64,000 nucleotides of DNA, from sequence record OQ067375.1, one strand, 5' to 3'. The position numbers and the translations under genes were made by a program. Source of the DNA: Escherichia phage a48. The notes beneath the pieces were generated by a model. The model saw only the letters and a list, made by a program, of their open reading frames with translations. It was not told the origin of the DNA and searched no databases. How positions within the stretch are numbered: position 1 is the first letter of the stretch; every line of letters starts with the position of its first letter. Shown piece after piece: positions 15,362 through 53,800 of this stretch.

Positions 15362-15682
15362 TTATAGCGTAATCCATTCTCGTACTGTCTGAGTTACTAC
15401 ACGTTCACGGGGCTCGACTAGTTCAACAGTCGGAACTGCATAATACCAGTCAGAATGATAAGAACCTGAGCGAGATTCATTTACAGCCACATGTACATTA
15501 TGTTTTGGACTAAAATAAACACACTGACGATATTGGCATTTACCATCTTGCACCCAGTCTTCTATTTCGACAGGTTTAAGATAATCGGAAAAATCGAAAT
15601 CATAGTTTTCCGAAAATGCATCATGGTCTTCAATGATTTCGCTCAGAACTGCATCAACATCTAATTTATTTTCAATAGTCAT
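15362..15682 (-). CDS. hypothetical protein (49.x)
   Basis: 106 aa acidic ORF. Confidence 0.5.
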   Translation of the reverse strand: MTIENKLDVDAVLSEIIEDHDAFSENYDFDFSDYLKPVEIEDWVQDGKCQYRQCVYFSPKHNVHVAVNESRSGSYHSDWYYAVPTVELVEPRERVVTQTVREWITL

Positions 15683-15692
15683 TTTTCACCAA

Positions 15693-15863
15693 TTAATTTC
15701 GCAATTTATTAAGTTCTTCATCATCAATCCAGGATTCTAGTCCTGATGGCAGGTCACATTCAATTTCCCAAAGAAGTTCTTCAATTTTCTGAAGACGATC
15801 TAGTTCTTCGGCTGGAATAGTAACCATTGACGAAGCTCGTGATACATTAATATCGTAAATCAT
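15693..15863 (-). CDS. small hypothetical protein
   Basis: 55-aa hand-found ORF MIYDINVSRASSMVTIPAEELDRLQKIEEL... Confidence 0.3.
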   Translation of the reverse strand: MIYDINVSRASSMVTIPAEELDRLQKIEELLWEIECDLPSGLESWIDDEELNKLRN

Positions 15864-16585: not shown

Positions 16586-16886
16586 TTTCTTCTCGGTCAA
16601 ATCGGTGTTTACAATGACGACATTTATAACGAAGATTACTAGTCTGCCAATGGACCAATTGCACCTGTTCAGTTCCACATTCAGGGCAATTAGGAACGTT
16701 TTTAGAAGCCCTTTCACGACGTTCAACCATGACCATTACAGAATCCCAATTAACAGGAGGGCTATAATCATCACAACCATGAATCTTTCCACGCATTTCC
16801 AGATCGTCTTCTTCACCAGCCATAATAATTTTAATTACACTAGAATTACTTGAAGCTGCAATGTCTTCTAATAGACGATTTTTCAT
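16572..16886 (-). CDS. zinc-ribbon-like small protein
   Basis: 104 aa; CPECG...CRHCKH four-Cys arrangement. Confidence 0.5.
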
Positions 16887-17809
16887 TTCAATACCTCAAT
16901 AGCATTGCGTAAACCATTTGCTTTGGCGGTTAAAGCCTTAAGAACTTTAGTATGCTCTTCAATTTGTTTTTCAACTTCAATCAAACGAGCATTGAGATAT
17001 TCGCGTTCTTCTTTCATAGTATCATTCCCATGATTGGATTTTGGTGTAGGTTTAAATTCACTAGGGTCCTTTAATTTAATAACAAATTTAGTTTCAAACA
17101 GCGAAAGACCATAATTCGTATTATCATCAAAGGATTTGACTACATCCATATCAGATAATAACACGCGTAAATTATAAGCCAAAGAACTAATAGTTTCATT
17201 GTGTTTATTAGCTTCGCGTGGTTTCATATACGGAAGATTTTTATATATCTCGTGCGGAGCACAAATGATAATTGACAATTCAAATTGCCCATTCTGGGAC
17301 GATGGAGTGAATTTAGCCGTAACCCAGTCTTTTACATTCACATTAATAGTACGGTTATCACCATGACAAAACAGTCTACGAGAATGCTTAAAAAGCATAT
17401 TCACGTTATTATTGAATTCGTGTGAAAATTCACTAGCAAATTTTTCTTTACTATCTTTAGAAAACCATTCTTCTAAATAAGTTCTTTTCACGTCGTTAAT
17501 AATATTAAATGTAACAACACTAGCATTTGATACATTAGTCTCAATGTAGCTTGGATACATAAATTTTTTAACATTATTAACAGCTATCACAGAAGATAGT
17601 AATCGGGAACGTTTGAACCACTCGAGCAAAGAACCAAGAGAATGTGAATACGCATTTTGTGTATCTTTACAAATATGGTTTTCCCATCCAATATAGTCTA
17701 AAAAATCACGAAGAATATTATTGATTACTGCTCTGTGTCCTATCTGATAATTACGATGTTTAGTAATAAGACTGTCAAAATAATCAATATAATGTTTACG
17801 AGTTTTCAT
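16883..17809 (-). CDS. paralog family member A (C-terminal coiled coil)
   Basis: 308 aa; N-terminus MKTRK...; C-terminal heptad-rich tail; similar to the three neighbouring ORFs. Confidence 0.6.
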   Translation of the reverse strand: MKTRKHYIDYFDSLITKHRNYQIGHRAVINNILRDFLDYIGWENHICKDTQNAYSHSLGSLLEWFKRSRLLSSVIAVNNVKKFMYPSYIETNVSNASVVTFNIINDVKRTYLEEWFSKDSKEKFASEFSHEFNNNVNMLFKHSRRLFCHGDNRTINVNVKDWVTAKFTPSSQNGQFELSIIICAPHEIYKNLPYMKPREANKHNETISSLAYNLRVLLSDMDVVKSFDDNTNYGLSLFETKFVIKLKDPSEFKPTPKSNHGNDTMKEEREYLNARLIEVEKQIEEHTKVLKALTAKANGLRNAIEVLK

Positions 17810-17861
17810 GTTCTTCTCACTTGGTTAATGATTTATACTCCGAGCCATCCTTGGCTTTAAA

Positions 17862-18859
17862 TTACTTAATTAACTGTAAAGCTTGTTCCAGACGATCAAG
17901 ACGATTAACAGATTCTTCCCAAATCCTTTTAGCCTGCTCATATTCTTTCTGCGCTTTATTAGAAATTTCTAGAACTTCTTTATAAGCTTTTTCTAGTGCA
18001 ATAACTTCTGGACGAATTTCTATCGGTTCAGGTGAATCATCAAGACATTCCATTAGTTCCTCAAGGGTAGTTTCTTCTTTAGGAGTATTCACAATTTCAT
18101 CACATTTTTGTTGGTAAATTTCTTTATCAGTAGGTGAATAAGCACATTTCACTTCACGAAGGCTAATTACGAGTTTATATCCTTCCCAACCGCATATATT
18201 CTTAAAAGGATATGTATGAATATTTTCTACTGTTTCCATACAAAGTAATGCGGTCTCTAATTGACGAGTTATAGTGCTAGCAATTGAGAAAAATTTATTA
18301 ATATTCTTTTGGTTAGTTTCTGGTGTAAAAAATCTGTAATTAATAAAAATAGCTACTTTGTTTTTATCAAGCTCATATTCTTCTGCTATAATCATATCAT
18401 CAGCTAAGGGATGAATTGTACGATAATCACCATAACATAATTTAGAAGCTGATTTTAGAATTTGCTTCGTAAAACTCCTAAATTCACTAACCCAACGACG
18501 AGTAAAAATATTCTCAGGGTCTTCTTTAGTATTAAGATGATAAGTATTAACATCACCGAACCAATTGTATCCTACTACATCTTTAGTTCGTTTAATTTCT
18601 TTCCCAAATTTACCAAGAATATCTTGATTAACTAAATATGAAAGAAGACGAGACCCTTTAAAGGTTTTCTTAATATCATCTTTATCCGTGCGGCTAGAAA
18701 TTTCATGAGCTTCATGAATAAATTTACTGGAAGAAACAATACTTACATCAATATTATTGAGCCATTGATAATAGAAATAACATCGTTCTGACTAGACACA
18801 GGTTTAACTTTATCATCAATAACGCTATTGAATGATTTGATATATTCGTTACGAGTCAT
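17862..18859 (-). pseudogene. paralog family member B, interrupted by a frameshift
   Basis: ATG 18857-18859 opens a 38-codon frame ending at 18743-18745; a second frame is open 17862-18791 but has no ATG until 18395; joining them requires a -1 shift within 18746-18791. Confidence 0.5.
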
Positions 18860-18887
18860 AATAATCTCCTCAGTAGAAAGTAAGAAC

Positions 18888-18917
18888 ATTATACCACATC
18901 CTTGTGGCAAAGTAAAC
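18888..18917 (-). promoter_or_regulatory. early sigma70-type promoter (-35 GTTTACT, -10 TATAAT)
   Basis: 17-bp spacer contains the palindrome CCACAAGGATGTGG; upstream of the ATG at 18859. Confidence 0.6.
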
Positions 18918-19930
18918 TAGTTCAGTGCATTGTTCAGTTTAGAACGTTGCTTTATCAGATTTTGAACCCTTGACTGAGCTTGTTCTAACGCCTTTTCAGC
19001 TTCTAGCACTTCATTGGTCGCTTTAACGAGTTCATCATCTACTGCCTTAAGAGACTTCTCAATCGCGTCAGCGTGCCATTTTTCAACAGGTTTAAGACTC
19101 GGATTTTCAATAGGAAGAAAATTCACTTTATTGAATTTCCATGCATCTTTATTACCTGAACTATACATCCAAAATTTAGGATCGTTTGATGAGTAATTAG
19201 ATGAATTTAAGGTATCTTGCACTTCTTGCTTTTTCTCTTGCGGGACTTCGTCCTTTCTCAAAAAATCGTATTTAAATGAAACGATCATATCAAGTTCATA
19301 TGTTGTTGTATGTTCCCAATTTCGCTCAAAACGAGGTAAAATCTTAGATTGAACAGCAGCAACAACATCCATATACTTAAATGCTTCTGTCAACTGTGAT
19401 TTAAGGCATTCGCAAATTGAAAGAGAATTTTTTGTATTAGGTTTAAAGCTAATTCGTGCAGTTCTATTATTTTCTTTTAACGGTCTTACTTCCATCTGAA
19501 GAGTATAACCATCAAATTTCAGATTCTTTAAGTTAATATCAGAGCCTTTTAATCGACTAGCAGTAGACAAAATTTGCTTTAATTGTTTACGGAACAGAGC
19601 AATAAATCTCCATTCAAGACGATAATGATTTGGATTAAAAAATCCAGTTGATAGATCAGTCTTACTTTGACCAACGCCTCGAACAAATAGAGGATTTTTA
19701 TAATCAATAGTTTTACAGAAATCGGTGAGCTGCTCGCGAGCAGTCATTTGTGTAATATACCCTGCTTTACTAAAATTACGCACCCATTCACTGCTATTCG
19801 TATACTTAAAGTGATGAATAACACGATTAACTTTATCAGGGTCTAAATTATTTTCACACAAAAATGTCATAACATCACGAGTATAACTGGCATTACGAAC
19901 CATATCTTCAATTTGAGAACGAGTTTTCAT
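18917..19930 (-). CDS. paralog family member C (C-terminal coiled coil)
   Basis: 337 aa; N-terminus MKTRSQIED...; C-terminal coiled coil. Confidence 0.6.
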   Translation of the reverse strand: MKTRSQIEDMVRNASYTRDVMTFLCENNLDPDKVNRVIHHFKYTNSSEWVRNFSKAGYITQMTAREQLTDFCKTIDYKNPLFVRGVGQSKTDLSTGFFNPNHYRLEWRFIALFRKQLKQILSTASRLKGSDINLKNLKFDGYTLQMEVRPLKENNRTARISFKPNTKNSLSICECLKSQLTEAFKYMDVVAAVQSKILPRFERNWEHTTTYELDMIVSFKYDFLRKDEVPQEKKQEVQDTLNSSNYSSNDPKFWMYSSGNKDAWKFNKVNFLPIENPSLKPVEKWHADAIEKSLKAVDDELVKATNEVLEAEKALEQAQSRVQNLIKQRSKLNNALN

Positions 19931-19938
19931 GGTGTTCC

Positions 19939-20847
19939 TTAAGATTTAAGTAAATCAACAATTTTAATTAATTTTTCACGTTCAGATTTAGCTTTACTAC
20001 TCAATCCAGATAGTCTGAAAATTTCATCGTCATATTGTTGAATAGAAATATTCAGCTCTTCAATTTGCTTATTAAAATAATCAATTTGTTCAGAATGTTT
20101 TTCGTTACTACGAACTGGTGCAGGTTTTGTAGGCAATTTAGTTGAACTGGATTCATCCGGGCGATAAATTAAAATACAATTTGAACCAATAGGGCATTTT
20201 GCACCAGACACATATTCTAATGTTCCGGCTTCTTTTAAAACTTCAAAAGCTAAACAGAGATGATGACCCATATTGGCATAATCTGTAGAGTGAGCTCTGA
20301 TATAATAATCATCTCCACGAGTACTAAATTTAAAACATTTAAGGTCTTCTGTATTATTGGTCTTAAAAATCATTTGTTTATCTAGACCTTTAGCTAATCG
20401 AGCACCTAATGCTAATAATCGTCGTTGATTTTCCCACAAATCTGCGATCATTTGGTCAAATGATAATTTCGGCATTAGTCGACCATAAAGGTCATATCCT
20501 TTATTATAATTGCGAAGAATTTCACTCGCGTTAATGCGAGACAACGCTCCAATTTTATTAAGGGCTTTCATGATGCGATTAGATAAAAGCATTCCAGACC
20601 CGTTTGTTCGTTGTAAATGTTTTTCTAATCCAAATCCAATATCAACTTTAAACTTATCTAAAATTTCGGCGTGAACATCTTTATCGATAACATTTAAATT
20701 TAGTACTGGGTTAAATTTATGAAAAAATTTATCTGACTCGTCGCGTTGAAGTACAGTCCATTCATTTGATTTTTTATTAACTAAAGATTTAATTACTGCA
20801 TTGACATTATTAATTGCTACTGACATATTTTCCTCACTCAATTTCAA
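19939..20847 (-). CDS. paralog family member D (C-terminal coiled coil)
   Basis: 302 aa; C-terminal coiled coil (IDYFNKQIEELNISIQQYDDEIFRL...). Confidence 0.55.
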   Translation of the reverse strand: MKLSEENMSVAINNVNAVIKSLVNKKSNEWTVLQRDESDKFFHKFNPVLNLNVIDKDVHAEILDKFKVDIGFGLEKHLQRTNGSGMLLSNRIMKALNKIGALSRINASEILRNYNKGYDLYGRLMPKLSFDQMIADLWENQRRLLALGARLAKGLDKQMIFKTNNTEDLKCFKFSTRGDDYYIRAHSTDYANMGHHLCLAFEVLKEAGTLEYVSGAKCPIGSNCILIYRPDESSSTKLPTKPAPVRSNEKHSEQIDYFNKQIEELNISIQQYDDEIFRLSGLSSKAKSEREKLIKIVDLLKS

Positions 20848-21241
20848 TTTTACTAAATATACAGAATAAGATAGAACAGACTATATAAGCACCACACACA
20901 GATTGAACTAATACCATTCCAAAGAACCAAACAATATTATCAAACAGTGTCTGTTTTACGTCGAAAGGACGTAAACTTACAGTAATATTATCACCTTTTT
21001 CTATTGAAGAATACATCTCTGGGGAAATATATTCACTAAATCTATAACCGTCTTTGAGTTCATATACGGCAATAAACGATAAACTAGACCCCTTTCCTTG
21101 TGTTCCTGTAATAGTATTAACTACAGTAACATCATAATCTTTATAATGCATATAATCATTAATTGCGTAATAACCATATGCAACTACTACACATAAACAA
21201 CATATCAATAAATTCAATCTTTTAATTATCAACTGTTTCAT
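20834..21241 (-). CDS. membrane protein
   Basis: 135 aa with N- and C-terminal hydrophobic helices. Confidence 0.5.
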   Translation of the reverse strand: MKQLIIKRLNLLICCLCVVVAYGYYAINDYMHYKDYDVTVVNTITGTQGKGSSLSFIAVYELKDGYRFSEYISPEMYSSIEKGDNITVSLRPFDVKQTLFDNIVWFFGMVLVQSVCGAYIVCSILFCIFSKIEIE

Positions 21242-21296
21242 AATAATCTCAGTTAAAAGGGCTTAGAACCATTATACCATCCTTGGTATAAAGCGG

Positions 21297-21824
21297 TTAT
21301 GCGAGTACCGTCTTTAACCGTTCTTCAAACTTCCGAAGAGTATTCTGGCGTTCAGCTCTTTGCTTTTTGTAAGTTTCAATACGCTCTGAAATGAGAGTGT
21401 ATCGTTCATTTACTGATTCTTTCATAAAATCAGGAATTTCACGAGAAGCTTTAATCTCATCAAATTTATCAATAACAGCTTGCTCTTCAGCAATTAAGTT
21501 ATCATACATTAAAATATCTTTCTTGATAAACTCAATATCTTCTTGAGTTACACGAGATAATTTAGATGCTTTATCCTTTTTGTACTGTTCGTTAGTATCA
21601 CGAGACCAGTGTAATGTACGATTTTTATTCGTATTCTTGTAAATTTCTACAATACCGATCTCATCGATAATAACGATCCAATTCCAACGGGATTTGTAAA
21701 TTTGTCCTCCGTCAACTGTGATTTCACCTCCGATTGAGATGTCATTAAAGAACTTACTTTGTGCTTCAGATTTAAATTTACCATCGTTGTAATTTACCAA
21801 GTTGAAAATATCTTTAGCGTTCAT
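21297..21824 (-). CDS. hypothetical protein
   Basis: 175 aa ORF directly downstream of an early-type promoter. Confidence 0.55.
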   Translation of the reverse strand: MNAKDIFNLVNYNDGKFKSEAQSKFFNDISIGGEITVDGGQIYKSRWNWIVIIDEIGIVEIYKNTNKNRTLHWSRDTNEQYKKDKASKLSRVTQEDIEFIKKDILMYDNLIAEEQAVIDKFDEIKASREIPDFMKESVNERYTLISERIETYKKQRAERQNTLRKFEERLKTVLA

Positions 21825-21852
21825 TTTCTGTTCCTCCGTAGTTGATAGTTGT

Positions 21853-21882
21853 ATAGTACCACAGAGGAACAGTCTTGTAAAC
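21853..21882 (-). promoter_or_regulatory. early sigma70-type promoter (-35 GTTTACA, -10 TACTAT)
   Basis: Shares the conserved GTGGTACTATACAACTATC core with four other sites; upstream of the ORF starting at 21824. Confidence 0.6.
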
Positions 21883-21884
21883 CA

Positions 21885-22190
21885 CTAAAAGAAACTTCTT
21901 TCACAATTTTTTCCACTGAACCAAGCACTTACCACTTTCTTAGTCTCAGGAGCAGTGTTATCCATAAACCATTCAAAGGCAGCCTTTTTATGATTCTGGA
22001 GGGCTTCTCGGGCTTTAATCTGCTCACGGTCTATTAACACTAACATATGAGCCTTTCTTGTCACCATGGGCTTCTTATGATTTTTTGAATACTCCCAATC
22101 ATTTGTCCATCGCATTGTTGTTGCGAACTGAAATACTGCTTCTTTAATCTTAGTTTCGTAAATTTCACGAGCCTTTGAGTATAACATCAC
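21885..22190 (-). CDS. hypothetical protein
   Basis: 101 aa ORF. Confidence 0.5.
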   Translation of the reverse strand: MMLYSKAREIYETKIKEAVFQFATTMRWTNDWEYSKNHKKPMVTRKAHMLVLIDREQIKAREALQNHKKAAFEWFMDNTAPETKKVVSAWFSGKNCERSFF

Positions 22191-22288
22191 TACCTCCGTT
22201 TACCAGTTTAATTCTAGTCATCTTTTTAATGGCAGTCCATATAATCTATTTCTGAACTGCCTTTTTGTCATAGAAGTCCTCTTATGAA

Positions 22289-23269
22289 TTATTTCAGAAG
22301 AGTAACCTCAGCAATTTCTTCCCAACCGTTTTTGTCGGTCATAATAAAGTCAGCAAGATAAAGAGCAGTACGCAGTGAAACATTGCGTAAACGATTAACA
22401 TTAACTTTCATCCATGATAATGCTTTATAAGTTTCTTCATCAGAAAGACCACGCTTTTGCATCATGTCGGTTGAAAGAATAACATCTTCAACCCTGACCA
22501 TAATTTCTTCATTAGTGTGAACACCCAAATCCAAATAAACCGAGCGGGACACTAATGCTTGTAAATGTGGAGCAAGTTTAGTACCACGGTCTAATTCGCG
22601 GTCAATGTCAACGTTTGTGATAAAAACAATCGTTCCTTTAAATTCAAACTCACGCTCAATGCCTTTTTCTTCTAAGTAAGAAGACGCAGTGCTCCAGCAG
22701 ACTTTACGGGTCTCTCCAGTGTCCAGAGCAGCTTTCAGAAGATTAAGAATGTCCATATCAGAGAAAACATCCACATCATCAATCAAAAGGACAGAATTCT
22801 CTTCACGATTATTCCAGAGCTGTTCATAAAGACCGATACCAGAGATTTTACCGTTAATGCTTTTATATTCAATGTATCCAATATCATTTGCTTTATTTAA
22901 AGCTTTATCTAAAGAATATGTTTTACCTATACCTGCCGCGCCAGAGATAATTAATGAACGAATATTTCCATTAATAATACCATTCGTCATCATTCCCATA
23001 ACATTAAATCTTTTATTAATGCGGGTTTTCATATCTTCATATGATTCTTTAACTTCTTCAACTTTTACACCATCATATGAAATGTCTGATTTGTAAACCC
23101 AAACACCGCGACGCTTACCGTCAATTTCAACAAAAACTTTACCATCTCCTTGTGCATCTACCGGAGCATTATCTGGGAACCATTCACCTAAGAGCTCAAA
23201 AGTTCCAGAGATTTCTTTACCGAAGTAGATACCCTTATTGATAGTTACAGTTTTCATTTTATTCTCCAA
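22289..23269 (-). CDS. P-loop NTPase (AAA-like ATPase)
   Basis: 326 aa; Walker A GAAGIGKT and Walker B VLLIDDVD; preceded by an early-type promoter. Confidence 0.65.
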   Translation of the reverse strand: MENKMKTVTINKGIYFGKEISGTFELLGEWFPDNAPVDAQGDGKVFVEIDGKRRGVWVYKSDISYDGVKVEEVKESYEDMKTRINKRFNVMGMMTNGIINGNIRSLIISGAAGIGKTYSLDKALNKANDIGYIEYKSINGKISGIGLYEQLWNNREENSVLLIDDVDVFSDMDILNLLKAALDTGETRKVCWSTASSYLEEKGIEREFEFKGTIVFITNVDIDRELDRGTKLAPHLQALVSRSVYLDLGVHTNEEIMVRVEDVILSTDMMQKRGLSDEETYKALSWMKVNVNRLRNVSLRTALYLADFIMTDKNGWEEIAEVTLLK

Positions 23270-23291
23270 ATCCGTATCAGTTGATAGTTGT

Positions 23292-23321
23292 ATAGTACCA
23301 TAAAGCTTTATGCTTGTAAAC
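23292..23321 (-). promoter_or_regulatory. early sigma70-type promoter
   Basis: Same conserved core; upstream of the P-loop ATPase gene (start 23269). Confidence 0.6.
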
Positions 23322-23350
23322 AGTTTTGTGAAAAATTTTTGAAATAAAAA

Positions 23351-23370
23351 AGGGAGCCCGAAGGCTCCCT
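23351..23370 (-). other. UUCG-tetraloop hairpin 3' of the nucleotidyltransferase-like gene
   Basis: GGGAGCC-UUCG-GGCUCCC on the minus-strand RNA. Confidence 0.5.
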
Positions 23371-23371
23371 A

Positions 23372-24385
23372 TCATTTATAATAACTTCGGTGGTTTTCAA
23401 GATAGACCTTCTCAAGGAAGTCATCCCAGAAACTCATGTCTACTGTTTTAGGCATACCGTTCTTAGAAGCTTCAGTAGATGCTGCTTCTACTTGATCGAC
23501 CACATCTTCCAAAAACTCTTGAACGGTTTTAAATGGATGTTTACCCAACTTCACGTCGAGAATAAATGGAGCATCTTGAAGTGGATAAATCAAGTCGCCA
23601 GTTTTGTAAATTTCCAATAGTTGAAGTCCACCACGACAAGCATGACTCAAAGCTTTCCAGTCAATACCTTCATTGGCTTCAGCCTTACGAGCACGTTCAC
23701 CATATTCAGCATCTAATTTGTTCAGTGACTGCTTAAGCTCAATAAGAGAAAGAGTTGTCTGATATTTACGACCCAACACTGTGTAAAACGTCTGTGGGCC
23801 TGTTTTCTCATGATTATGGAACACCCATTCACAGAATTCGTTTTCTGGAAGACGATGCTTAATATCTTCAACTTTAGTGCGACGCTGCTTAATAGAACCA
23901 TCTTCTTGGTAATCAACCCATTGCTCGGGGATTTGATTAACTACTTTCAATACATCACGTAATGCAGCCAAACGAGAACCCTTGACACCGTATTTAGAAG
24001 CTTGCTTGCGGACATATCCTAAATATGATTTCATGTTAGTCGTATAAAAACGAGAACGGTTGTCTTGAATAAACTTCCACACATCAGGCAAATCAGATTT
24101 AACCACTAGTTCAGGTGGAGTGTGAAGCATATCCAATGCTACAGTTTCACCATCTGCCGCTAATTTAAAGAAATATTTAAGACTGTATAGTTCATGGTCA
24201 ATATCATCTTTAGTGTTTTTAGATGATGTGTTGTTAGTGTTTTTACTCATGTGCTCTTTGACATTTCCGATAAGAATATCGCGAGCAGGAGGAACAAAGA
24301 TTTCTTTAAAATCTACATCAGATTCTGGGGTAGAAGTTCCATAAAGATGACTACCAAAATAGCTTTTCATTACTGTTTTCATCAT
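23372..24385 (-). CDS. nucleotidyltransferase-like protein (Pol-beta superfamily motif)
   Basis: 337 aa; N-terminal GSHLYGTSTPESDVDF fits the GS-x(9-13)-DxD nucleotidyltransferase signature; stem-loop after the stop. Confidence 0.55.
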   Translation of the reverse strand: MMKTVMKSYFGSHLYGTSTPESDVDFKEIFVPPARDILIGNVKEHMSKNTNNTSSKNTKDDIDHELYSLKYFFKLAADGETVALDMLHTPPELVVKSDLPDVWKFIQDNRSRFYTTNMKSYLGYVRKQASKYGVKGSRLAALRDVLKVVNQIPEQWVDYQEDGSIKQRRTKVEDIKHRLPENEFCEWVFHNHEKTGPQTFYTVLGRKYQTTLSLIELKQSLNKLDAEYGERARKAEANEGIDWKALSHACRGGLQLLEIYKTGDLIYPLQDAPFILDVKLGKHPFKTVQEFLEDVVDQVEAASTEASKNGMPKTVDMSFWDDFLEKVYLENHRSYYK

Positions 24386-37590: not shown

Positions 37591-37635
37591 AGTATTTCCT
37601 TAGGTTAATTAAGATTTAAAATCCATGAGAGTATT

Positions 37636-37812
37636 ATACTCCGGATAGTTTGTAAACTATTTCAACATCGCCTTTTGCTGCTTTATAACCTTCAGCCCAA
37701 GATACAACCGAGTTTTTATCTGAAGATTCAAATTCTGGCATTGGGCTTTCGCCAATGTTCACGCAGTATGTTTCTTCATTTTCGTCAAACCAAATAATTA
37801 AAGTAGTCATTT
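37636..37812 (-). CDS. small hypothetical protein
   Basis: 58-aa hand-found ORF MTTLIIWFDENEETYCVNIGESPM... Confidence 0.3.
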
Positions 37813-37878
37813 ATTTCTCCGTTTCTGTATTTGTTTTGATAAGTCTATAATAACACCGTCCTTGGTGTTTGTACACAA

Positions 37879-38154
37879 TTATTTCATATTATTGAAATAT
37901 TCTTCTGCGATTTCGTCGTTATCATGGTAAACTTTAGAAGACAGTTTAACATAACCTTCAGCAGTGAACATGTTAATCACAACCTTTACAGTATACCACT
38001 GACCATCTTCATTACCCATTACTGCGTAAGTTTCAAACATCGGATGGTCAGGACCGATAACTTTAATATCATTCACCGTACGACCGAAATCTTCTGAAAC
38101 ACATTTCATAAAGAAGTTGAACAGTTCGCCGTAATTATCCATTTCGTTCTCCAA
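37879..38154 (-). CDS. hypothetical protein
   Basis: 91 aa ORF downstream of an early-type promoter. Confidence 0.5.
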   Translation of the reverse strand: MENEMDNYGELFNFFMKCVSEDFGRTVNDIKVIGPDHPMFETYAVMGNEDGQWYTVKVVINMFTAEGYVKLSSKVYHDNDEIAEEYFNNMK

Positions 38155-38924: not shown

Positions 38925-39235
38925 TTGCGGCAACCTTGTCGGGGTTCCACCTGCTAAGGCAAGTGTTTGTACGAAACGCCGGGATTCGAACCCGGTTATT
39001 AAGTAGTTGACGCTACTCAATATTTTTAAAAGGCCATATCTCGACCATATCCGAACGTTCCGTCAAAAACGCTACTCGGCTTATGGCAAAGATATTTCCT
39101 CGAATCGATAATTCGGTGCGCCGTTTCTGCTGTGATATAAGGGGACATTAACAAAACATAAAGATTTATTAATGCCAGTCCTTAAACAGGGAACATCAGT
39201 CCGACGACTTGCCGGTAGCGACCCGGCTTCTTGTC
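38925..39235 (-). ncRNA. stable-RNA region with tRNA-like 3' domain (T4 species C/D-like)
   Basis: No ORF; contains CCGGGUUCGAAUCCCGG T-arm and a 7-bp acceptor-like pairing (CGGAACG/CGUUUCG); sits between tRNA-Arg and a terminator. Confidence 0.35.
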
Positions 39236-39311
39236 TGGTCGAGGCAGTAGGGATCGAACCTACGACCCAGGACTTAGAAGGTCCTTGCTCTTCCTTCTGA
39301 GCTATGCCCCG
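39236..39311 (-). tRNA. tRNA-Arg (anticodon UCU)
   Basis: 76 nt hand-folded: acceptor CGGGGCA/UGCCUCG, anticodon loop CUUCUAA, T-loop UUCGAUC, encoded CCA. Confidence 0.85.
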
Positions 39312-39314
39312 TAA

Positions 39315-39980
39315 TTAAAATTTCATTTTTCGACCTTTAAACCATCCTTCTGGAATTGGGTCAGTTTTCTTAATACGTTTAGAAACTTTTTCATCTAATG
39401 AATGAATCCACATCATACCAAATTGGGAATTCTTTTCACCTTTCTGGTGATTATTTTTAGCGTGAATTTCTTTCATTTTATTAATAGTTTCAAGAGTATG
39501 ATGCTTATTTAAAAATCTGCTATTATTTAAAAATTTTTCCTTGTATTCAGGAGTTGACCATAAACGTTTAAATACATTTGAACCATTTTGACGATATTTT
39601 TCTTGAAGTAAAATATCATTTTTAAAACGTGACTTAAACGATTTAGCTCCTTTTAAACTAGCGTCTTTCTTCTGATTTAGCATCTCAGGAATATTTATAT
39701 GATCCCATCCACCTTCACCGCCAAGTTTTAAATTATACACATCTGGTCTATTTAAAAACTCTTCTGTGACAATATTTTTCTCGGCTTCAAGCATAGATTC
39801 TTTATCATCAAAATATTCTAATATTTCTTTAGAAAAATTTTCTATACCATACCGGTCTTGGGCTCTTTTTAATAATTTACCAGAACCCATATATCCATCA
39901 TCTAAATTTTCGGTAGAATGCACACCAATATAAATTTTATTATTAATTTTATTTGTTATTTTATAAAGATAAAAATGCAT
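39315..39980 (-). CDS. segB: GIY-YIG homing endonuclease SegB
   Basis: 221 aa from the ATG at 39978-39980; GIY-YIG motifs (FYLYKITN...KIYIGVH...YMGSG); embedded in the tRNA cluster as in T4. Confidence 0.8.
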   Translation of the reverse strand: MHFYLYKITNKINNKIYIGVHSTENLDDGYMGSGKLLKRAQDRYGIENFSKEILEYFDDKESMLEAEKNIVTEEFLNRPDVYNLKLGGEGGWDHINIPEMLNQKKDASLKGAKSFKSRFKNDILLQEKYRQNGSNVFKRLWSTPEYKEKFLNNSRFLNKHHTLETINKMKEIHAKNNHQKGEKNSQFGMMWIHSLDEKVSKRIKKTDPIPEGWFKGRKMKF

Positions 39981-40026
39981 ATCAGTCCTTAATAAAGAAC
40001 TGAGCGTCTCACGACGAGTCATAAAT

Positions 40027-48915: not shown

Positions 48916-50898
48916 ATGGCAAATACCCCTGTAAATTATCAATTAACAAGAACAGCAAATGCTATTCCCGAGATATTCGTCGGGGGTACGTTTGCTGAAA
49001 TAAAACAAAACCTCATTGAATGGCTTAATGGCCAAAATGAATTTTTGGATTATGATTTTGAAGGCTCAAGATTAAACGTTCTGTGTGACCTTTTGGCTTA
49101 TAATACATTGTACATTCAGCAGTTTGGTAATGCTGCTGTGTATGAAAGCTTTATGCGTACTGCTAACTTACGAAGTTCAGTTGTTCAAGCTGCACAAGAT
49201 AACGGATATTTACCTACTTCAAAATCCGCTGCGCAGACCGAAATTATGTTAACATGCACCGACGCATTGAATAGGAATTACATTACTATTCCTCGCGGAA
49301 CTCGCTTTTTAGCATATGCAAAAGATACTTCTGTTAATCCATATAACTTCGTTTCTACCGAAGACGTTATTGCTATTCGTGATAAAAATAACCAATATTT
49401 TCCGCGTTTAAAATTGGCCCAGGGACGTATAGTAAGAACTGAAATCATTTATGATAAATTAACACCTATTATCATTTATGATAAAAATATTGATAGAAAC
49501 CAGGTTAAATTATATGTTGATGGAGCGGAATGGATTAACTGGACGAGAAAGTCAATGGTTCATGCTGGTTCAACATCAACGATTTACTATATGCGTGAAA
49601 CTATTGATGGAAACACTGAATTCTATTTTGGTGAAGGTGAAATTTCTGTTAATGCTTCTGAAGGAGCTTTAACTGCCAATTATATCGGAGGTCTTAAACC
49701 TACTCAGAACTCTACGATTGTTATTGAGTACATCAGTACTAATGGTGCTGACGCGAACGGAGCAGTCGGATTTTCATACGCAGATACATTAACAAATATA
49801 ACTGTCATCAATATTAATGAAAATCCAAACGATGACCCAGATTTTGTTGGGGCAGATGGCGGCGGTGATCCAGAAGATATTGAGCGTATCCGCGAATTGG
49901 GTACTATTAAACGCGAAACCCAGCAACGCTGCGTAACTGCGACTGACTATGATACATTCGTTTCAGAGAGATTTGGTTCTATTATTCAAGCAGTTCAGAC
50001 TTTCACTGATTCTACTAAACCTGGTTATGCATTTATTGCTGCTAAACCTAAATCAGGTCTGTATTTAACTACTGTACAGCGTGAAGATATTAAAAATTAT
50101 CTCAAAGACTATAATTTAGCTCCTATTACGCCATCAATTATTTCTCCTAATTACCTTTTTATTAAGACTAATTTAAAAGTCACATATGCTTTAAATAAGC
50201 TGCAAGAATCCGAACAGTGGCTCGAAGGTCAAATAATTGATAAAATTGATCGTTATTATACCGAAGATGTAGAAATTTTTAACTCATCTTTCGCTAAATC
50301 TAAGATGTTGACATATGTAGATGATGCAGATCATTCTATCATTGGCTCATCCGCGACAATTCAAATTGTTCGTGAAGTACAAAACTTCTATAAAACGCCT
50401 GAAGCAGGTATTAAATACAATAATCAAATAAAAGACCGTTCTATGGAATCTAATACGTTTTCATTTAATTCTGGACGAAAGGTTGTAAATCCTGATACTG
50501 GTTTAGAAGAAGATGTATTATATGACGTTCGCATAGTATCAACAGACCGAAATTCTAAAGGAATTGGTAAAGTTATTATTGGTCCATTTGCTTCTGGCGA
50601 TGTTACAGAAAATAAAAACATTCGTCCATATACAGGAAACGATTTTAACAAATTAGCAAATTCTGATGGACGCGACAAATACTATGTTATCGGTGAAATA
50701 AATTATCCAGCTGATGTGATTTATTGGAATATCGCTAAAATTAATTTAACATCTGAAAAATTTGAAGTTCAGACCATTGAATTATATTCTGACCCAACCG
50801 ATGATGTTATCTTTACTCGCGATGGTTCACTGATTGTATTTGAAAATGACTTACGTCCACAATACTTAACTATCGATTTGGAGCCTATATCACAATGA
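48916..50898 (+). CDS. 6: baseplate wedge protein gp6
   Basis: 660 aa; size and order match T4. Confidence 0.9.
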   Translation: MANTPVNYQLTRTANAIPEIFVGGTFAEIKQNLIEWLNGQNEFLDYDFEGSRLNVLCDLLAYNTLYIQQFGNAAVYESFMRTANLRSSVVQAAQDNGYLPTSKSAAQTEIMLTCTDALNRNYITIPRGTRFLAYAKDTSVNPYNFVSTEDVIAIRDKNNQYFPRLKLAQGRIVRTEIIYDKLTPIIIYDKNIDRNQVKLYVDGAEWINWTRKSMVHAGSTSTIYYMRETIDGNTEFYFGEGEISVNASEGALTANYIGGLKPTQNSTIVIEYISTNGADANGAVGFSYADTLTNITVININENPNDDPDFVGADGGGDPEDIERIRELGTIKRETQQRCVTATDYDTFVSERFGSIIQAVQTFTDSTKPGYAFIAAKPKSGLYLTTVQREDIKNYLKDYNLAPITPSIISPNYLFIKTNLKVTYALNKLQESEQWLEGQIIDKIDRYYTEDVEIFNSSFAKSKMLTYVDDADHSIIGSSATIQIVREVQNFYKTPEAGIKYNNQIKDRSMESNTFSFNSGRKVVNPDTGLEEDVLYDVRIVSTDRNSKGIGKVIIGPFASGDVTENKNIRPYTGNDFNKLANSDGRDKYYVIGEINYPADVIYWNIAKINLTSEKFEVQTIELYSDPTDDVIFTRDGSLIVFENDLRPQYLTIDLEPISQ

Positions 50899-53800
50899 CA
50901 GTAAAAGCACCTTCAGTCACTAGTCTCAGAATTTCCAAGTTATCCGCAAATCAGGTGCAAGTACGCTGGGATGACGTTGGTGCTAATTTCTACTATTTTG
51001 TAGAAATCGCTGAGACAAAGACAGACTCGGGGGAAAATCTCCCGAGTAATCAATATAGATGGATTAACTTAGGATATACTGCAAATAACAGCTTCTTTTT
51101 TGACGATGCTGACCCATTGACATCATACATTATTAGAGTAGCTACAGCTGCACAAGATTTTGAGCAGTCTGATTGGATTTATACCGAAGAGTTTGAAACT
51201 TTTGCTACGAATGCTTACACATTTCAAAACATGATTGAAATGCAATTAGCCAATAAATTCATTCAGGAAAAATTTACTCTTAACAATTCTAATTATGTCA
51301 ATTTTAATAATGACACTATAATGGCTGCATTGATGAATGAATCGTTCCAATTCAGCCCATCATATGTTGATGTTTCATCAATCAGTAATTTTATTATTGG
51401 TGAAAATGAGTATCATGAAATACAAGGTTCCATTCAGCAAGTATGTAAGGATATTAACCGAGTTTATTTGATGGAATCAGAAGGGATTCTATATCTTTTT
51501 GAGCGTTATCAACCCGTGGTTAAAGTATCTAATGATAAAGGACAAACCTGGAAAGCTGTAAAGCTCTTCAATGACCGTGTAGGATATCCTTTATCTAAGA
51601 CAGTATATTACCAATCTGCGAACACAACATACGTTCTAGGATACGACAAGATTTTCTATGGCCGTAAATCGACTGACGTTAGATGGTCAGCAGATGATGT
51701 CAGATTCAGTTCGCAGGATATAACATTTGCTAAACTTGGCGACCAGTTACATTTAGGATTTGATGTAGAAATCTTTGGTACTTATGCGACTTTACCAGCG
51801 AATGTATATCGTATAGCTGAAGCCATTACTTGTACGGATGATTATATCTATGTTGTTGCCAGAGATAAAGTTAGATATATAAAAACGAGTAATGCACCTA
51901 TAGATTCTGACCCGTTATCACCAACATACTCGGAAAGACTTTTTGAACCTGATACAATGACTATAACTGGAAATCCTAAAGCAGTATGCTATAAAATGGA
52001 TTCTATCGGTGATAAAGTTTTTGCTCTTATTATTGGTGAAGTTGAAACATTAAATGCCAATCCGAGAACTTCAAAAATAATTGATTCTGCTGATAAAGGA
52101 ATATATGTTTTAAATCATGACGAAAAAACATGGAAAAGAGTTTTCGGTAATACCGAAGAAGAAAGAAGACGTATTCAACCTGGATACGCAAACATGTCAA
52201 CTGACGGTAAATTAGTTTCTCTGTCTTCGAGTAATTTTAAATTTTTAAGTGATAATGTTGTTAATGACCCTGAAACTATGGTGAAATATCAGTTAATCGG
52301 TGCTGTTAAATATGAATTTCCCCGTGAATGGTTAGCTGATAAGCATTATCATATGATGGCATTTATAGCGGATGAAAAATCTGATTGGGAGACTTTTACT
52401 CCTCAACCAATGAAATACTACGCAGAACCGTTCTTTAATTGGTCTAAAAAATCTAACACACGCTGTTGGATAAACAACTCTAATAGAGCTGTAGTAGTTT
52501 ATGCTGATTTAAAATACACTAAAGTTATAGAAAATATTCCGGAAACATCACCAGATAGATTAGTTCATGAATACTGGGATGATGGTGATTGTACGATAGT
52601 AATGCCAAATGTTAAATTCACGGGATTTAAAAAATATGCGTCTGGGATGCTTTTTTATAAATCTTCTGGTGAAATAATTTCTTACTATGATTTTAACTAT
52701 CGTGTGAGAGATACAGTAGAAATTATTTGGAAGCCGACTGGAGTATTTTTAAAAGCATTTTTACAAAACCAAGAGCATGAGACTCCTTGGTCACCAGAAG
52801 AAGAGCATGGATTAGCTGATCCTGATTTAAGACCATTAATTGGCACAATGATGCCTGATTCTTATTTGTTGCAGGATTCGAATTTTGAGGCATTTTGCGA
52901 AGCATATATTCAGTATCTTTCTGATGGATATGGAACTCAGTATAACAATTTACGAAATTTAATTCGTAACCAATATCCACGAGAAGAGCATGCGTGGGAA
53001 TATTTGTGGTCAGAGATATATAAAAGAAACATTTATTTAAATGCTGATAAACGTGATGCTGTTGCGAGATTCTTTGAATCACGTAGCTATGATTTTTATT
53101 CTACTAAAGGAATTGAAGCATCATACAAGTTTCTTTTTAAAGTTCTTTATAATGAAGAAGTTGAAATTGAAATTGAATCTGGGGCCGGTACTGAATATGA
53201 CATAATCGTTCAATCTGATTCTTTGACTGAAGATTTAGTAGGACAAACGATTTATACGGCAACAGGAAGATGTAATGTTACTTATATAGAAAGAAGTTAT
53301 TCTAATGGTAAATTGCAATGGACCGTAACTATTCATAATCTTTTGGGAAGATTAATTGCTGGTCAAGAAGTTAAAGCAGAAAGACTCCCTAGTTTTGAAG
53401 GCGAAATTATTCGTGGAGTTAAAGGAAAGGATTTGCTTCAAAACAATATAGACTATATTAATAGAAGTAGATCATACTATGTAATGAAAATTAAATCCAA
53501 TTTACCTTCTTCCCGCTGGAAATCTGACGTTATTCGTTTTGTTCATCCAGTAGGATTTGGATTTATAGCAATTACCCTTTTAACGATGTTTATTAATGTT
53601 GGTTTAACTCTTAAACATACAGAGACTATAATTAATAAATACAAAAACTATAAATGGGATTCTGGATTGCCTACTGAATATGCTGATAGAGTAGCTAAAT
53701 TAACTCCAACCGGTGAAATTGAGCATGATTCAGTAACAGGCGAAGCAATTTATGAGCCTGGCCCAATGGCTGGTGTAGAATATCCTCTTCCTGATGACTA

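What the first reader, a model, noticed from the sequence alone, without database searches (positions are those of the whole stretch)
17862..18859. One member of the paralog array is split by a -1 frameshift
A good ATG at 18857-18859, 25 bp downstream of an early promoter, opens a frame that stops after 38 codons at 18743-18745. A second frame is open from 18791 to 17862 but has no ATG until 18395, leaving about 130 codons unexplained. The two frames overlap across 18746-18791 and together would give a protein of about 330 aa, the size of its neighbours. This is either a recent inactivating indel, a sequencing error, or a ribosomal frameshift; no classical slippery heptamer is obvious in the overlap.
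Basis: seen in the sequence. Interest (0 to 1): 0.55.

Follow-up and report, generated by a model that had tools for sequence, protein, structure and literature searches.

The report
Frameshifted nrdC.4 gene in T4-like phage
A non-essential early gene (nrdC.4) of a T4-like phage has lost four bases from a short tandem repeat, which breaks its reading frame; this is an ordinary, recent gene-killing mutation (or possibly an assembly error), not a programmed frameshift.

Summary
ATG 18859-18857 opens a 38-codon frame that stops at 18745-18743. The -1 frame is open from 18791 to 17862 and has no start codon before ATG 18395.

The window is a Tequatrovirus (T4-like phage), and this locus is the ortholog of T4 nrdC.4 (333 aa). 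Intact orthologs read TCTATT-ATCA-ATCA-ATGG here. The window reads TCTATT-ATCA-ATGG, so one 4-nt repeat unit is missing (residual ATCAAT at 18769-18764). Putting the four bases back gives a full 333-aa protein that matches PHROG 1435 end to end.

- **Unique to this genome:** none of about 465 related phage genomes has the deletion, and neither does any IMG/VR contig.
- **No recoding signal:** the overlap has no slippery heptamer, no homopolymer run and no unusual RNA structure.
- **Recent:** the last 702 nt of the repaired gene differ at only 4 positions from an intact allele.
- **Gene is dispensable:** nrdC.4 is broken at other sites in phage T2 and in one IMG/VR genome, and nrdC.1-6 can be deleted from T4.

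Verdict: a slipped-strand deletion has made a pseudogene of an accessory early gene. An assembly error cannot be ruled out without reads. Interest is low.

The parts
18888..18916 (-). Early promoter: -35 TTTACT at 18916-18911, 17-nt spacer, TG-extended -10 TATAAT at 18893-18888. Ortholog of T4 'early promoter 50.0'.
   Evidence: The promoter scan finds it. The sequence is identical to T4. T4 record U76612.1 annotates the -35 and -10 signals as early promoter 50.0.
18866..18871 (-). Shine-Dalgarno GAGGAG, 6 nt upstream of the ATG.
   Evidence: Read directly from the sequence. Conserved in T4, SG1 and G29.
18743..18859 (-). 5' remnant of nrdC.4: 38 codons plus a TAA stop. Residues 1-32 are native NrdC.4. 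Residues 33-38 (GSIILM) are out of frame.
   Evidence: Translation; alignment to orthologs.
18764..18769 (-). Deletion site. The residual ATCAAT is what remains of ATCAATCAAT (2.5 units of ATCA) in intact orthologs. One 4-nt unit is missing. The exact breakpoint cannot be placed within the repeat.
   Evidence: DNA alignments. BLAST against G29 places a 4-nt deletion at window position 18770.
17862..18791 (-). 3' remnant of nrdC.4. The -1 frame is open for 309 codons plus the stop at 17864-17862. From 18763 on it encodes NrdC.4 residues 33-333. There is no start codon before 18395.
   Evidence: Translation, ORF list, start-codon scan. The repaired protein matches PHROG 1435 over 1-333 with E = 1.8e-163.
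18393..18395 (-). First in-frame ATG of the 3' remnant (Met156 of NrdC.4). It has no Shine-Dalgarno and is unlikely to be used.
   Evidence: The upstream 18 nt, CATCCCTTAGCTGATGAT, contain no GGAG, GAGG, AGGA or AAGG.
16883..17809 (-). Intact paralog nrdC.3 (308 aa), in the same family as nrdC.4.
   Evidence: PHROG 1435, E = 2.2e-101. Pfam PF26897 Phage_T4_Y04OP on both genes in RB33. BLASTP 28% over 102 aa, E = 8e-6.
18917..19930 (-). Intact nrdC.5 (337 aa, DUF7235), a weak and distant relative of nrdC.4. The T4 ortholog counteracts the Dsr1 defence system.
   Evidence: Pfam DUF7235, E = 8e-126. BLASTP 24% over 209 aa, E = 0.002. Anti-Dsr1 role from PMC9391042.

Best explanation
The locus is the ortholog of phage T4 early gene nrdC.4. 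It was inactivated by loss of one 4-nt unit (ATCA) from a short tandem repeat, ATCAATCAAT, which encodes Ile31-Asn32-Gln33. This is a classic replication-slippage (Streisinger-type) frameshift mutation.

Shown:
- Translation from the native start (early promoter, SD, ATG 18859) leaves the NrdC.4 frame after Asn32, adds six unrelated residues and stops at 18745-18743.
- The remaining 301 codons have no usable start codon.
- The deletion, its uniqueness to this genome, the absence of recoding signals, the lack of further decay, and the dispensability of the gene in relatives.

Inferred:
- The 3' part is not translated, so the phage lacks NrdC.4. The intact paralog nrdC.3 and the neighbour nrdC.5 remain.
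- The mutation is real rather than an assembly artefact.
- It is neutral or nearly so on the host used for propagation. NrdC.4 is a non-essential accessory protein, plausibly an anti-defence or host-range factor like its neighbour NrdC.5.
- About 880 nt of untranslated mRNA may also cause some Rho-dependent polarity on nrdC.3 and the genes downstream.
For: - **Identity of the locus.** The window is 94-95% identical across this locus to Tequatrovirus genomes. T4 annotates nrdC.5, nrdC.4 (333 aa) and nrdC.3 at this position.
- **The lesion.** Alignments to T4, SG1, G29, sutha, RB33 and five IMG/VR contigs show a single 4-nt gap in the window, inside ATCAATCAAT. One contig (L005) carries the same divergent 5' allele as the window but has the repeat intact. 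Re-inserting ATCA gives a 333-aa protein that matches PHROG 1435 over its full length, E = 1.8e-163.
- **Uniqueness.**
  - The 40 listed records span 184-185 nt against the window's 181.
  - A synthetic T4-allele junction lacking the 4 nt reaches at best 94.1% (64 of 68) in 464 records.
  - IMG/VR has no match.
  - Metagenome and genome scans gave only chance 21-mers.
  - Three contigs that encode an identical NrdC.3 all carry an intact nrdC.4.
- **Recency.**
  - Only 2 of 333 residues are private against 43 orthologs.
  - Nucleotides 301-1002 of the repaired gene differ at 4 positions from intact SG1.
  - pN/pS is 0.17-0.48, against 0.18-0.23 between intact orthologs.
- **No recoding signals.** No X XXY YYZ heptamer, no homopolymer run, fold z-score -0.10.
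- **Assembly quality.** This is the only uncompensated frame-breaking indel in a conserved ORF over 64 kb compared with G29.
- **Dispensability.** T2 carries -1 and -2 indels, and IMGVR_2974742932 carries a +1 indel, at other sites in nrdC.4. nrdC.1-6 is deletable in T4 (PMC9825161).
Against: - No read data are available, so an assembly or consensus error cannot be excluded. Nor can a mutation acquired during laboratory passage.
- pN/pS against the T4-type alleles (0.40-0.48) is somewhat above the ortholog-to-ortholog range. The gene is mosaic, though, so this comparison is confounded.
- The function of NrdC.4 is unknown. The predicted fold has no PDB relative, so 'neutral loss' is an inference.
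- Low-level non-canonical recoding cannot be ruled out from sequence alone.
Confidence: 0.8

Rival explanations
1. Sequencing or assembly artefact. The phage actually carries the intact ATCAATCAAT repeat, and the consensus sequence dropped one 4-nt unit.
For: The lesion occurs in no other public sequence. The rest of the gene is pristine, which is also what an artefact would look like. Short tandem repeats can be collapsed in long-read consensus sequences (general knowledge).
Against: - A 4-nt unit deletion is not the usual homopolymer-type error.
- Compared with G29, the 64-kb window shows no other isolated frame-breaking indel in a conserved ORF. That comparison includes 18 kb of structural genes with a single intergenic 1-nt indel, so the assembly does not look error-prone.
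- Real frameshifts in this same gene exist in T2 and in another genome.
Confidence: 0.15
2. Programmed recoding: a -1 or +2 ribosomal frameshift, a translational bypass like T4 gene 60, or transcriptional slippage. Any of these would join the two frames into a full-length NrdC.4.
For: The two frames overlap by 46 nt, and the 3' frame is fully open with no start codon. T4-like phages do use translational bypassing in gene 60 (general knowledge).
Against: - No X XXY YYZ heptamer in any frame, no A/T run of 5 or more, and no C/G run of 4 or more in the first 140 nt.
- The RNA fold of 18800-18660 is indistinguishable from shuffled sequence, z = -0.10.
- The -1 frame has no ATG or TTG codon that could serve as a landing site for the last 0-frame codons.
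- About 465 relatives encode a single uninterrupted frame. The shift is explained entirely by a 4-nt deletion private to this genome. A programmed site would be conserved.
Confidence: 0.02
3. A functional split gene. The 38-aa N-terminal peptide, together with a C-terminal product started internally (for example from ATG 18395, 177 aa), retains NrdC.4 activity.
For: T2 and G8-type genomes are annotated with two half-size CDSs at this locus. The internal ATG 18395 opens a 177-aa ORF.
Against: - ATG 18395 has no Shine-Dalgarno. Nothing with that exact product is on record elsewhere.
- The break points differ in every affected genome: codon 33 here, about codons 13 and 171 in T2, about codon 178 in IMGVR_2974742932. 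That is the pattern of random inactivation.
- In the AF2 model, Met156 lies just before strand E158-162, inside the alpha/beta core. A 177-aa product would lack the N-terminal helical bundle and the first three strands.
Confidence: 0.03

Closest known systems
Phage T4 gene nrdC.4 (UniProt Y04P_BPT4; Pfam PF26897 Phage_T4_Y04OP; PHROG 1435)
   Same: Same genomic position (between nrdC.5 and nrdC.3), same early promoter P50.0, same SD and start codon. About 94% nucleotide identity across the 1.5-kb locus, and the repaired protein is about 90% identical to T4 NrdC.4.
   Different: The window copy lacks 4 nt (one ATCA unit), so it encodes only a 38-aa truncated product. Its 5' 200 nt belong to a different, mosaic allele group, closest to IMG/VR contig L005 and phage sutha.
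Split nrdC.4 of phage T2 (NC_054931, CDS T2_089 and T2_088) and of IMGVR_UViG_2974742932 (a 158-aa fragment like that of vB_EcoM_G8)
   Same: The same gene, disrupted by small indels and annotated as two short ORFs. This shows that nrdC.4 is repeatedly lost in Tequatrovirus.
   Different: Independent events at other positions: T2 has -1 at nt 38 and -2 at nt 513, and the IMG/VR genome has +1 at nt 532. The window has -4 at nt 91-94.
Streisinger slipped-strand frameshift mutations at short tandem repeats (classically described in T4 rII and lysozyme genes)
   Same: Loss of exactly one unit of a short direct tandem repeat, with flanks unchanged. This follows from the alignments and from established knowledge of the model.
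   Different: The mechanism is inferred from the sequence signature only. No mutational intermediate or rate was measured.
Programmed -1 ribosomal frameshifting and T4 gene 60 translational bypassing
   Same: Two overlapping frames that together encode one protein.
   Different: There is no slippery heptamer, no stimulatory structure, no matching take-off and landing codons, and no conservation of the shift in relatives. It neither works like these systems nor belongs to them.

Membership tests
T4 NrdC.4 / Pfam PF26897 (Phage_T4_Y04OP) / PHROG 1435 | Full-length sequence homology to the family profile. | tested here: met
   The repaired 333-aa protein matches PHROG 1435 over residues 1-333 against profile positions 1-334, E = 1.8e-163. 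It is 85.9-94.3% identical to Tequatrovirus NrdC.4 proteins. PF26897 is recorded for those homologs and for both nrdC.4 and nrdC.3 in RB33.
T4 NrdC.4 / Pfam PF26897 (Phage_T4_Y04OP) / PHROG 1435 | Conserved synteny: downstream of nrdC.5 and upstream of nrdC.3, behind early promoter 50.0. | tested here: met
T4 NrdC.4 / Pfam PF26897 (Phage_T4_Y04OP) / PHROG 1435 | A single uninterrupted ORF of about 333 codons, i.e. a functional member. | tested here: not met
   The frame is broken after codon 32 by a 4-nt deletion. The 0 frame stops at codon 39. The locus is therefore a pseudogene of the family.
Programmed -1 ribosomal frameshift site | Slippery heptamer X XXY YYZ in the overlap, in the 0 frame. 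| tested here: not met
   None in any frame upstream of the 0-frame stop.
Programmed -1 ribosomal frameshift site | A stimulatory downstream RNA structure (hairpin or pseudoknot). | tested here: not met
   The minimum free energy of 18800-18660 is -22.6 kcal/mol, against a shuffle mean of -22.3; z = -0.10. Pseudoknots were not modelled.
Programmed -1 ribosomal frameshift site | The two-frame arrangement is conserved in orthologs. | tested here: not met
   The junction lacking the 4 nt is absent from 464-468 phage records and from IMG/VR. Almost all orthologs are a single ORF, and the few that are broken are broken at other sites.
Translational bypassing (T4 gene 60 type) | Matching take-off and landing codons that flank a stop codon and a hairpin. 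| tested here: not met
   The last 0-frame codons (TTG, ATG) have no matching codon in the -1 frame before 18395. No special structure is present.
Replication-slippage frameshift mutation at a tandem repeat | The indel equals a whole number of units of a pre-existing short tandem repeat, with flanks unchanged. | tested here: met
   Intact orthologs read ATCAATCAAT and the window reads ATCAAT. The flanks TCTATT and GGCTCAATA are conserved.
Replication-slippage frameshift mutation at a tandem repeat | The mutation is physically present in the phage DNA, i.e. it is not a consensus error. | not testable with these tools
   No reads are available. The only support is indirect: the assembly is otherwise clean compared with G29.

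The most novel reading that the evidence does not exclude
The 4-nt-deleted allele is expressed through low-efficiency, non-canonical recoding or reinitiation. The phage would then make a small, regulated amount of full-length or N-terminally truncated NrdC.4. This would amount to a new recoding site with no classical slippery motif in a T4-like phage.
Probability: 0.02. Interest if true: 0.6.

Novelty: already known. Interest (0 to 1): 0.1.

Why it matters
It matters little on its own. It is a useful annotation point: the locus should be labelled as an nrdC.4 pseudogene (frameshifted), not as two hypothetical genes or a recoding site.

In context it adds one more case of independent loss of nrdC.4 among T-even phages. 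That fits this early-gene cluster (nrdC.1-nrdC.11) being dispensable accessory cargo whose members, such as the anti-Dsr1 protein NrdC.5, matter only on particular hosts. If NrdC.4 turns out to be an anti-defence factor, this phage would be a natural knock-out for testing host-range effects.

Tried and rejected
- **Programmed frameshift, bypass or transcriptional slippage.** I scanned for slippery heptamers, homopolymers, alternative starts and RNA structure and found nothing.
- **The same junction elsewhere.**
  - An exact 36-mer and a degenerate 21-mer in IMG/VR gave 0 hits.
  - The degenerate 21-mer gave 3 hits each in the metagenome and genome collections. All were chance matches of 21-23 nt with no flanking homology.
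  - A synthetic T4-allele junction found no gap-free match in the phage collection.
- **Exact-product look-ups.** The 38-aa and 177-aa products and NrdC.5 are not on record. The source genome is apparently not in the collections.
- **Fold-based function for NrdC.4.** The AF2 model of an intact ortholog is good (pLDDT 82.3). Foldseek found nothing significant in the PDB (best E = 0.04). BFVD returned only uncharacterised T4-like phage proteins. Function stays unknown.
- **Pfam.** The local Pfam copy gave only a sub-threshold DUF3905 hit, which I disregard.
- **'Thioredoxin' labels.** Many GenBank records call NrdC.4 a thioredoxin. No Pfam hit supports this, so I treat it as an annotation carried over from nrdC.
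- **Tandem Repeats Finder.** It reports nothing in the locus, because the repeat is too short. This is not a contingency-type microsatellite.

Full report
**1. What is in the sequence**

On the minus strand, ATG 18859-18857 follows a GAGGAG Shine-Dalgarno (18871-18866) and a sigma-70-type promoter. The promoter is TTTACT 18916-18911, a 17-nt spacer, then a TG-extended TATAAT at 18893-18888.

This frame reads MTRNEYIKSFNSVIDDKVKPVSSQNDVISIINGSIILM and stops at TAA 18745-18743. The -1 (+2) frame has its last stop at 18794-18792. It is then open to the stop at 17864-17862, a run of 309 codons. It contains no ATG, GTG or TTG before ATG 18395.

**2. Identity of the locus**

The window is a T4-like phage of the genus Tequatrovirus. 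A 1.5-kb query around the locus matches 500 phage records at up to 95.3% identity. In T4 the matching stretch carries nrdC.5, nrdC.4 (333 aa, 49914-50915 of AF158101) and nrdC.3. Elsewhere the window is 96-99% identical to phages such as RB32/RB33, G29 and UPWr_E4, and no record is identical to it.

The promoter is identical in sequence to the 'early promoter 50.0' annotated in T4 record U76612.1. There the -10 box ends 28 nt before the nrdC.4 ATG.

**3. The lesion**

I aligned the window to T4, SG1, G29, sutha, RB33, T2 and five IMG/VR contigs. The window shows one gap: four bases are missing inside the tandem repeat ATCAATCAAT. Intact genes read TCTATT-ATCA-ATCA-ATGG (Ser-Ile-Ile-Asn-Gln-Trp). 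The window reads TCTATT-ATCA-ATGG, and the residual ATCAAT lies at 18769-18764.

The 30 nt just upstream of the deletion look unusually divergent from T4. That is allelic mosaicism and not decay. IMG/VR contig L005 and phage sutha carry nearly the same variant with the repeat intact.

Re-inserting ATCA yields a 333-aa protein that matches PHROG 1435 end to end (E = 1.8e-163). It is 85.9-94.3% identical to Tequatrovirus NrdC.4 proteins. The signature, loss of exactly one unit of a short direct repeat with unchanged flanks, is that of a replication-slippage (Streisinger-type) frameshift mutation. The mechanism is inferred from this signature.

**4. More than chance, and private to this genome**

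The start-less open frame is NrdC.4 residues 33-333, so it is not a chance ORF.

- In the phage collection, all 40 listed records span 184-185 nt where the window has 181.
- A synthetic junction built on the T4-type allele without the four bases reaches at most 94.1% (64 of 68) in 464 records. That figure means every one of them carries the extra four bases.
- Exact and degenerate junction patterns find nothing in IMG/VR.
- In the metagenome and genome collections they find only chance 21-mers.
- Three contigs that encode a protein identical to this window's NrdC.3 (RB33 and two Logan assemblies) all have an intact nrdC.4.

**5. Age of the lesion**

- Against 43 close orthologs, the repaired protein has only two private residues, S26D and V52A.
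- Nucleotides 301-1002 of the repaired gene differ at just four positions from the intact SG1 allele.
- pN/pS against orthologs is 0.17-0.48, compared with 0.18-0.23 between intact orthologs.
- There is no second stop or frameshift.

The inactivation is therefore very recent. Alternatively the gene is not inactivated at all and the deletion is a consensus error.

**6. Programmed recoding is not supported**

- The overlap has no X XXY YYZ heptamer in any frame.
- It has no homopolymer run that could support transcriptional slippage.
- It has no near-cognate landing codon for a bypass.
- The RNA from 18800 to 18660 folds no better than shuffled sequence, z = -0.10.
- The two-frame arrangement is absent from about 465 relatives.

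**7. Sequencing error cannot be excluded but is the less likely reading**

I compared the whole 64-kb window with phage G29. This 4-nt deletion is the only isolated, uncompensated frame-breaking indel inside a conserved ORF. The other indels not divisible by three are either intergenic or sit in divergent patches where the window still has intact ORFs. The 18-kb structural-gene block has a single intergenic 1-nt indel. The assembly does not look error-prone, and a 4-nt unit deletion is not a typical homopolymer error. Only reads can settle the point.

**8. Consequence and context**

From the native start, the phage would make a 38-residue peptide: 32 native residues plus GSIILM.

The first ATG in the 3' frame is Met156 at 18395. 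It has no Shine-Dalgarno. In an AlphaFold2 model of an intact ortholog (pLDDT 82.3, pTM 0.67) it lies inside the alpha/beta core. A 177-aa product would lack the N-terminal helical bundle and the first three strands. I infer a null allele.

NrdC.4 is a phage-specific protein of unknown function.
- Foldseek finds no PDB relative (best E = 0.04).
- BFVD returns only uncharacterised proteins of T4-like phages.

Pfam places NrdC.3 and NrdC.4 in one family, PF26897 Phage_T4_Y04OP. NrdC.5 (DUF7235) is at best a distant relative, 24% over 209 aa with E = 0.002. NrdC.6, NrdC.10 (P-loop NTPase-like) and NrdC.11 (nucleotidyltransferase) are unrelated. The 'paralog array' is therefore really a pair, or perhaps a trio.

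The literature shows that the cluster is dispensable.
- The nrdC.1-6 block can be deleted from T4 (PMC9825161).
- T4 NrdC.5 counteracts the Dsr1 defence system and is lost in some evolved clones at the cost of host range (PMC9391042).

In line with this, nrdC.4 is independently broken in phage T2 (a 1-nt deletion at nt 38 and a 2-nt deletion at nt 513, annotated as two CDSs). It is also broken in IMGVR_UViG_2974742932 (a 1-nt insertion at nt 532). BFVD holds a 158-aa fragment from vB_EcoM_G8, the same length as the 3' ORF of that contig.

A possible side effect is Rho-dependent polarity on nrdC.3 and downstream genes, because about 880 nt of the early transcript are no longer translated. This is inference only.

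**9. Verdict**

The refinement is that the lesion is a 4-nt repeat-unit deletion. The locus is a pseudogene of a known, non-essential T4 early gene, a kind of event already seen in T2. Novelty is nil and interest is low. The practical outcome is an annotation correction, plus a natural nrdC.4 knock-out should the gene's function ever be studied.

Noticed in passing
L009 (phage T2, NC_054931 46278-47217) and L008 1501-2503 (IMGVR_UViG_2974742932_000001): nrdC.4 is independently frameshifted in phage T2 (-1 at nt 38, -2 at nt 513, annotated as two CDSs). It is also frameshifted in an IMG/VR genome (+1 at nt 532, giving ORFs of 200 and 158 aa). BFVD holds a 158-aa fragment from vB_EcoM_G8. The gene is lost repeatedly in Tequatrovirus.
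   Followed up: partly
L011 1083-1580 (Shigella phage Sf25, MF327009): The nrdC.4 of Sf25 is 416 aa because of a perfect, 100% identical, in-frame 249-nt tandem duplication. This is either a very recent duplication or an assembly artefact.
   Followed up: partly
window 18887-18889 (minus strand): An in-frame ATG 30 nt upstream of the real start lies inside the -10 box (TATAATG). Many database entries annotate NrdC.4 as 342-343 aa starting there (MFLLSTEEI[IN]M...). It has no Shine-Dalgarno and would not be on the transcript from promoter 50.0, so these are probably mis-called starts.
   Followed up: partly
window 16883-24385 (the nrdC.3-nrdC.11 orthologs) and the corresponding GenBank records: Many phage records label nrdC.3, nrdC.4, nrdC.5 and other genes in this stretch 'thioredoxin'. 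Pfam gives no thioredoxin or glutaredoxin hit for the six proteins scanned (NrdC.3, .4, .5, .6, .10, .11). The label appears to have spread from the gene name nrdC.
   Followed up: partly
window 18892-18909 and 17840-17854: Two small hairpins with an AGGA loop sit just after the stop codons of nrdC.5 and nrdC.4: CCACA-AGGA-TGTGG and GCCA-AGGA-TGGC. The first overlaps the spacer of early promoter 50.0. Their role is unknown; possibilities include transcript 3'-end stability and RegB or RNase sites.
   Followed up: no
window 23269-23305 versus G29 (L012 25377-26513); also window 15362-15706, 37606-37879 and 39232-40023: These are breaks in the window-to-G29 alignment. G29 has about 1.1 kb between nrdC.10 and nrdC.11 that the window lacks. 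The other three window stretches do not align with G29, including one of about 0.8 kb in the tRNA region. This is typical mosaic or mobile-element variation of T-even phages.
   Followed up: no
window 18783-18785: A private dinucleotide-scale change next to the deletion: AAC GAT where relatives have AAT AGT or AAT AGC (S26D). It accounts for three of the five private nucleotides in the gene, clustered about 15 nt upstream of the deletion site.
   Followed up: no
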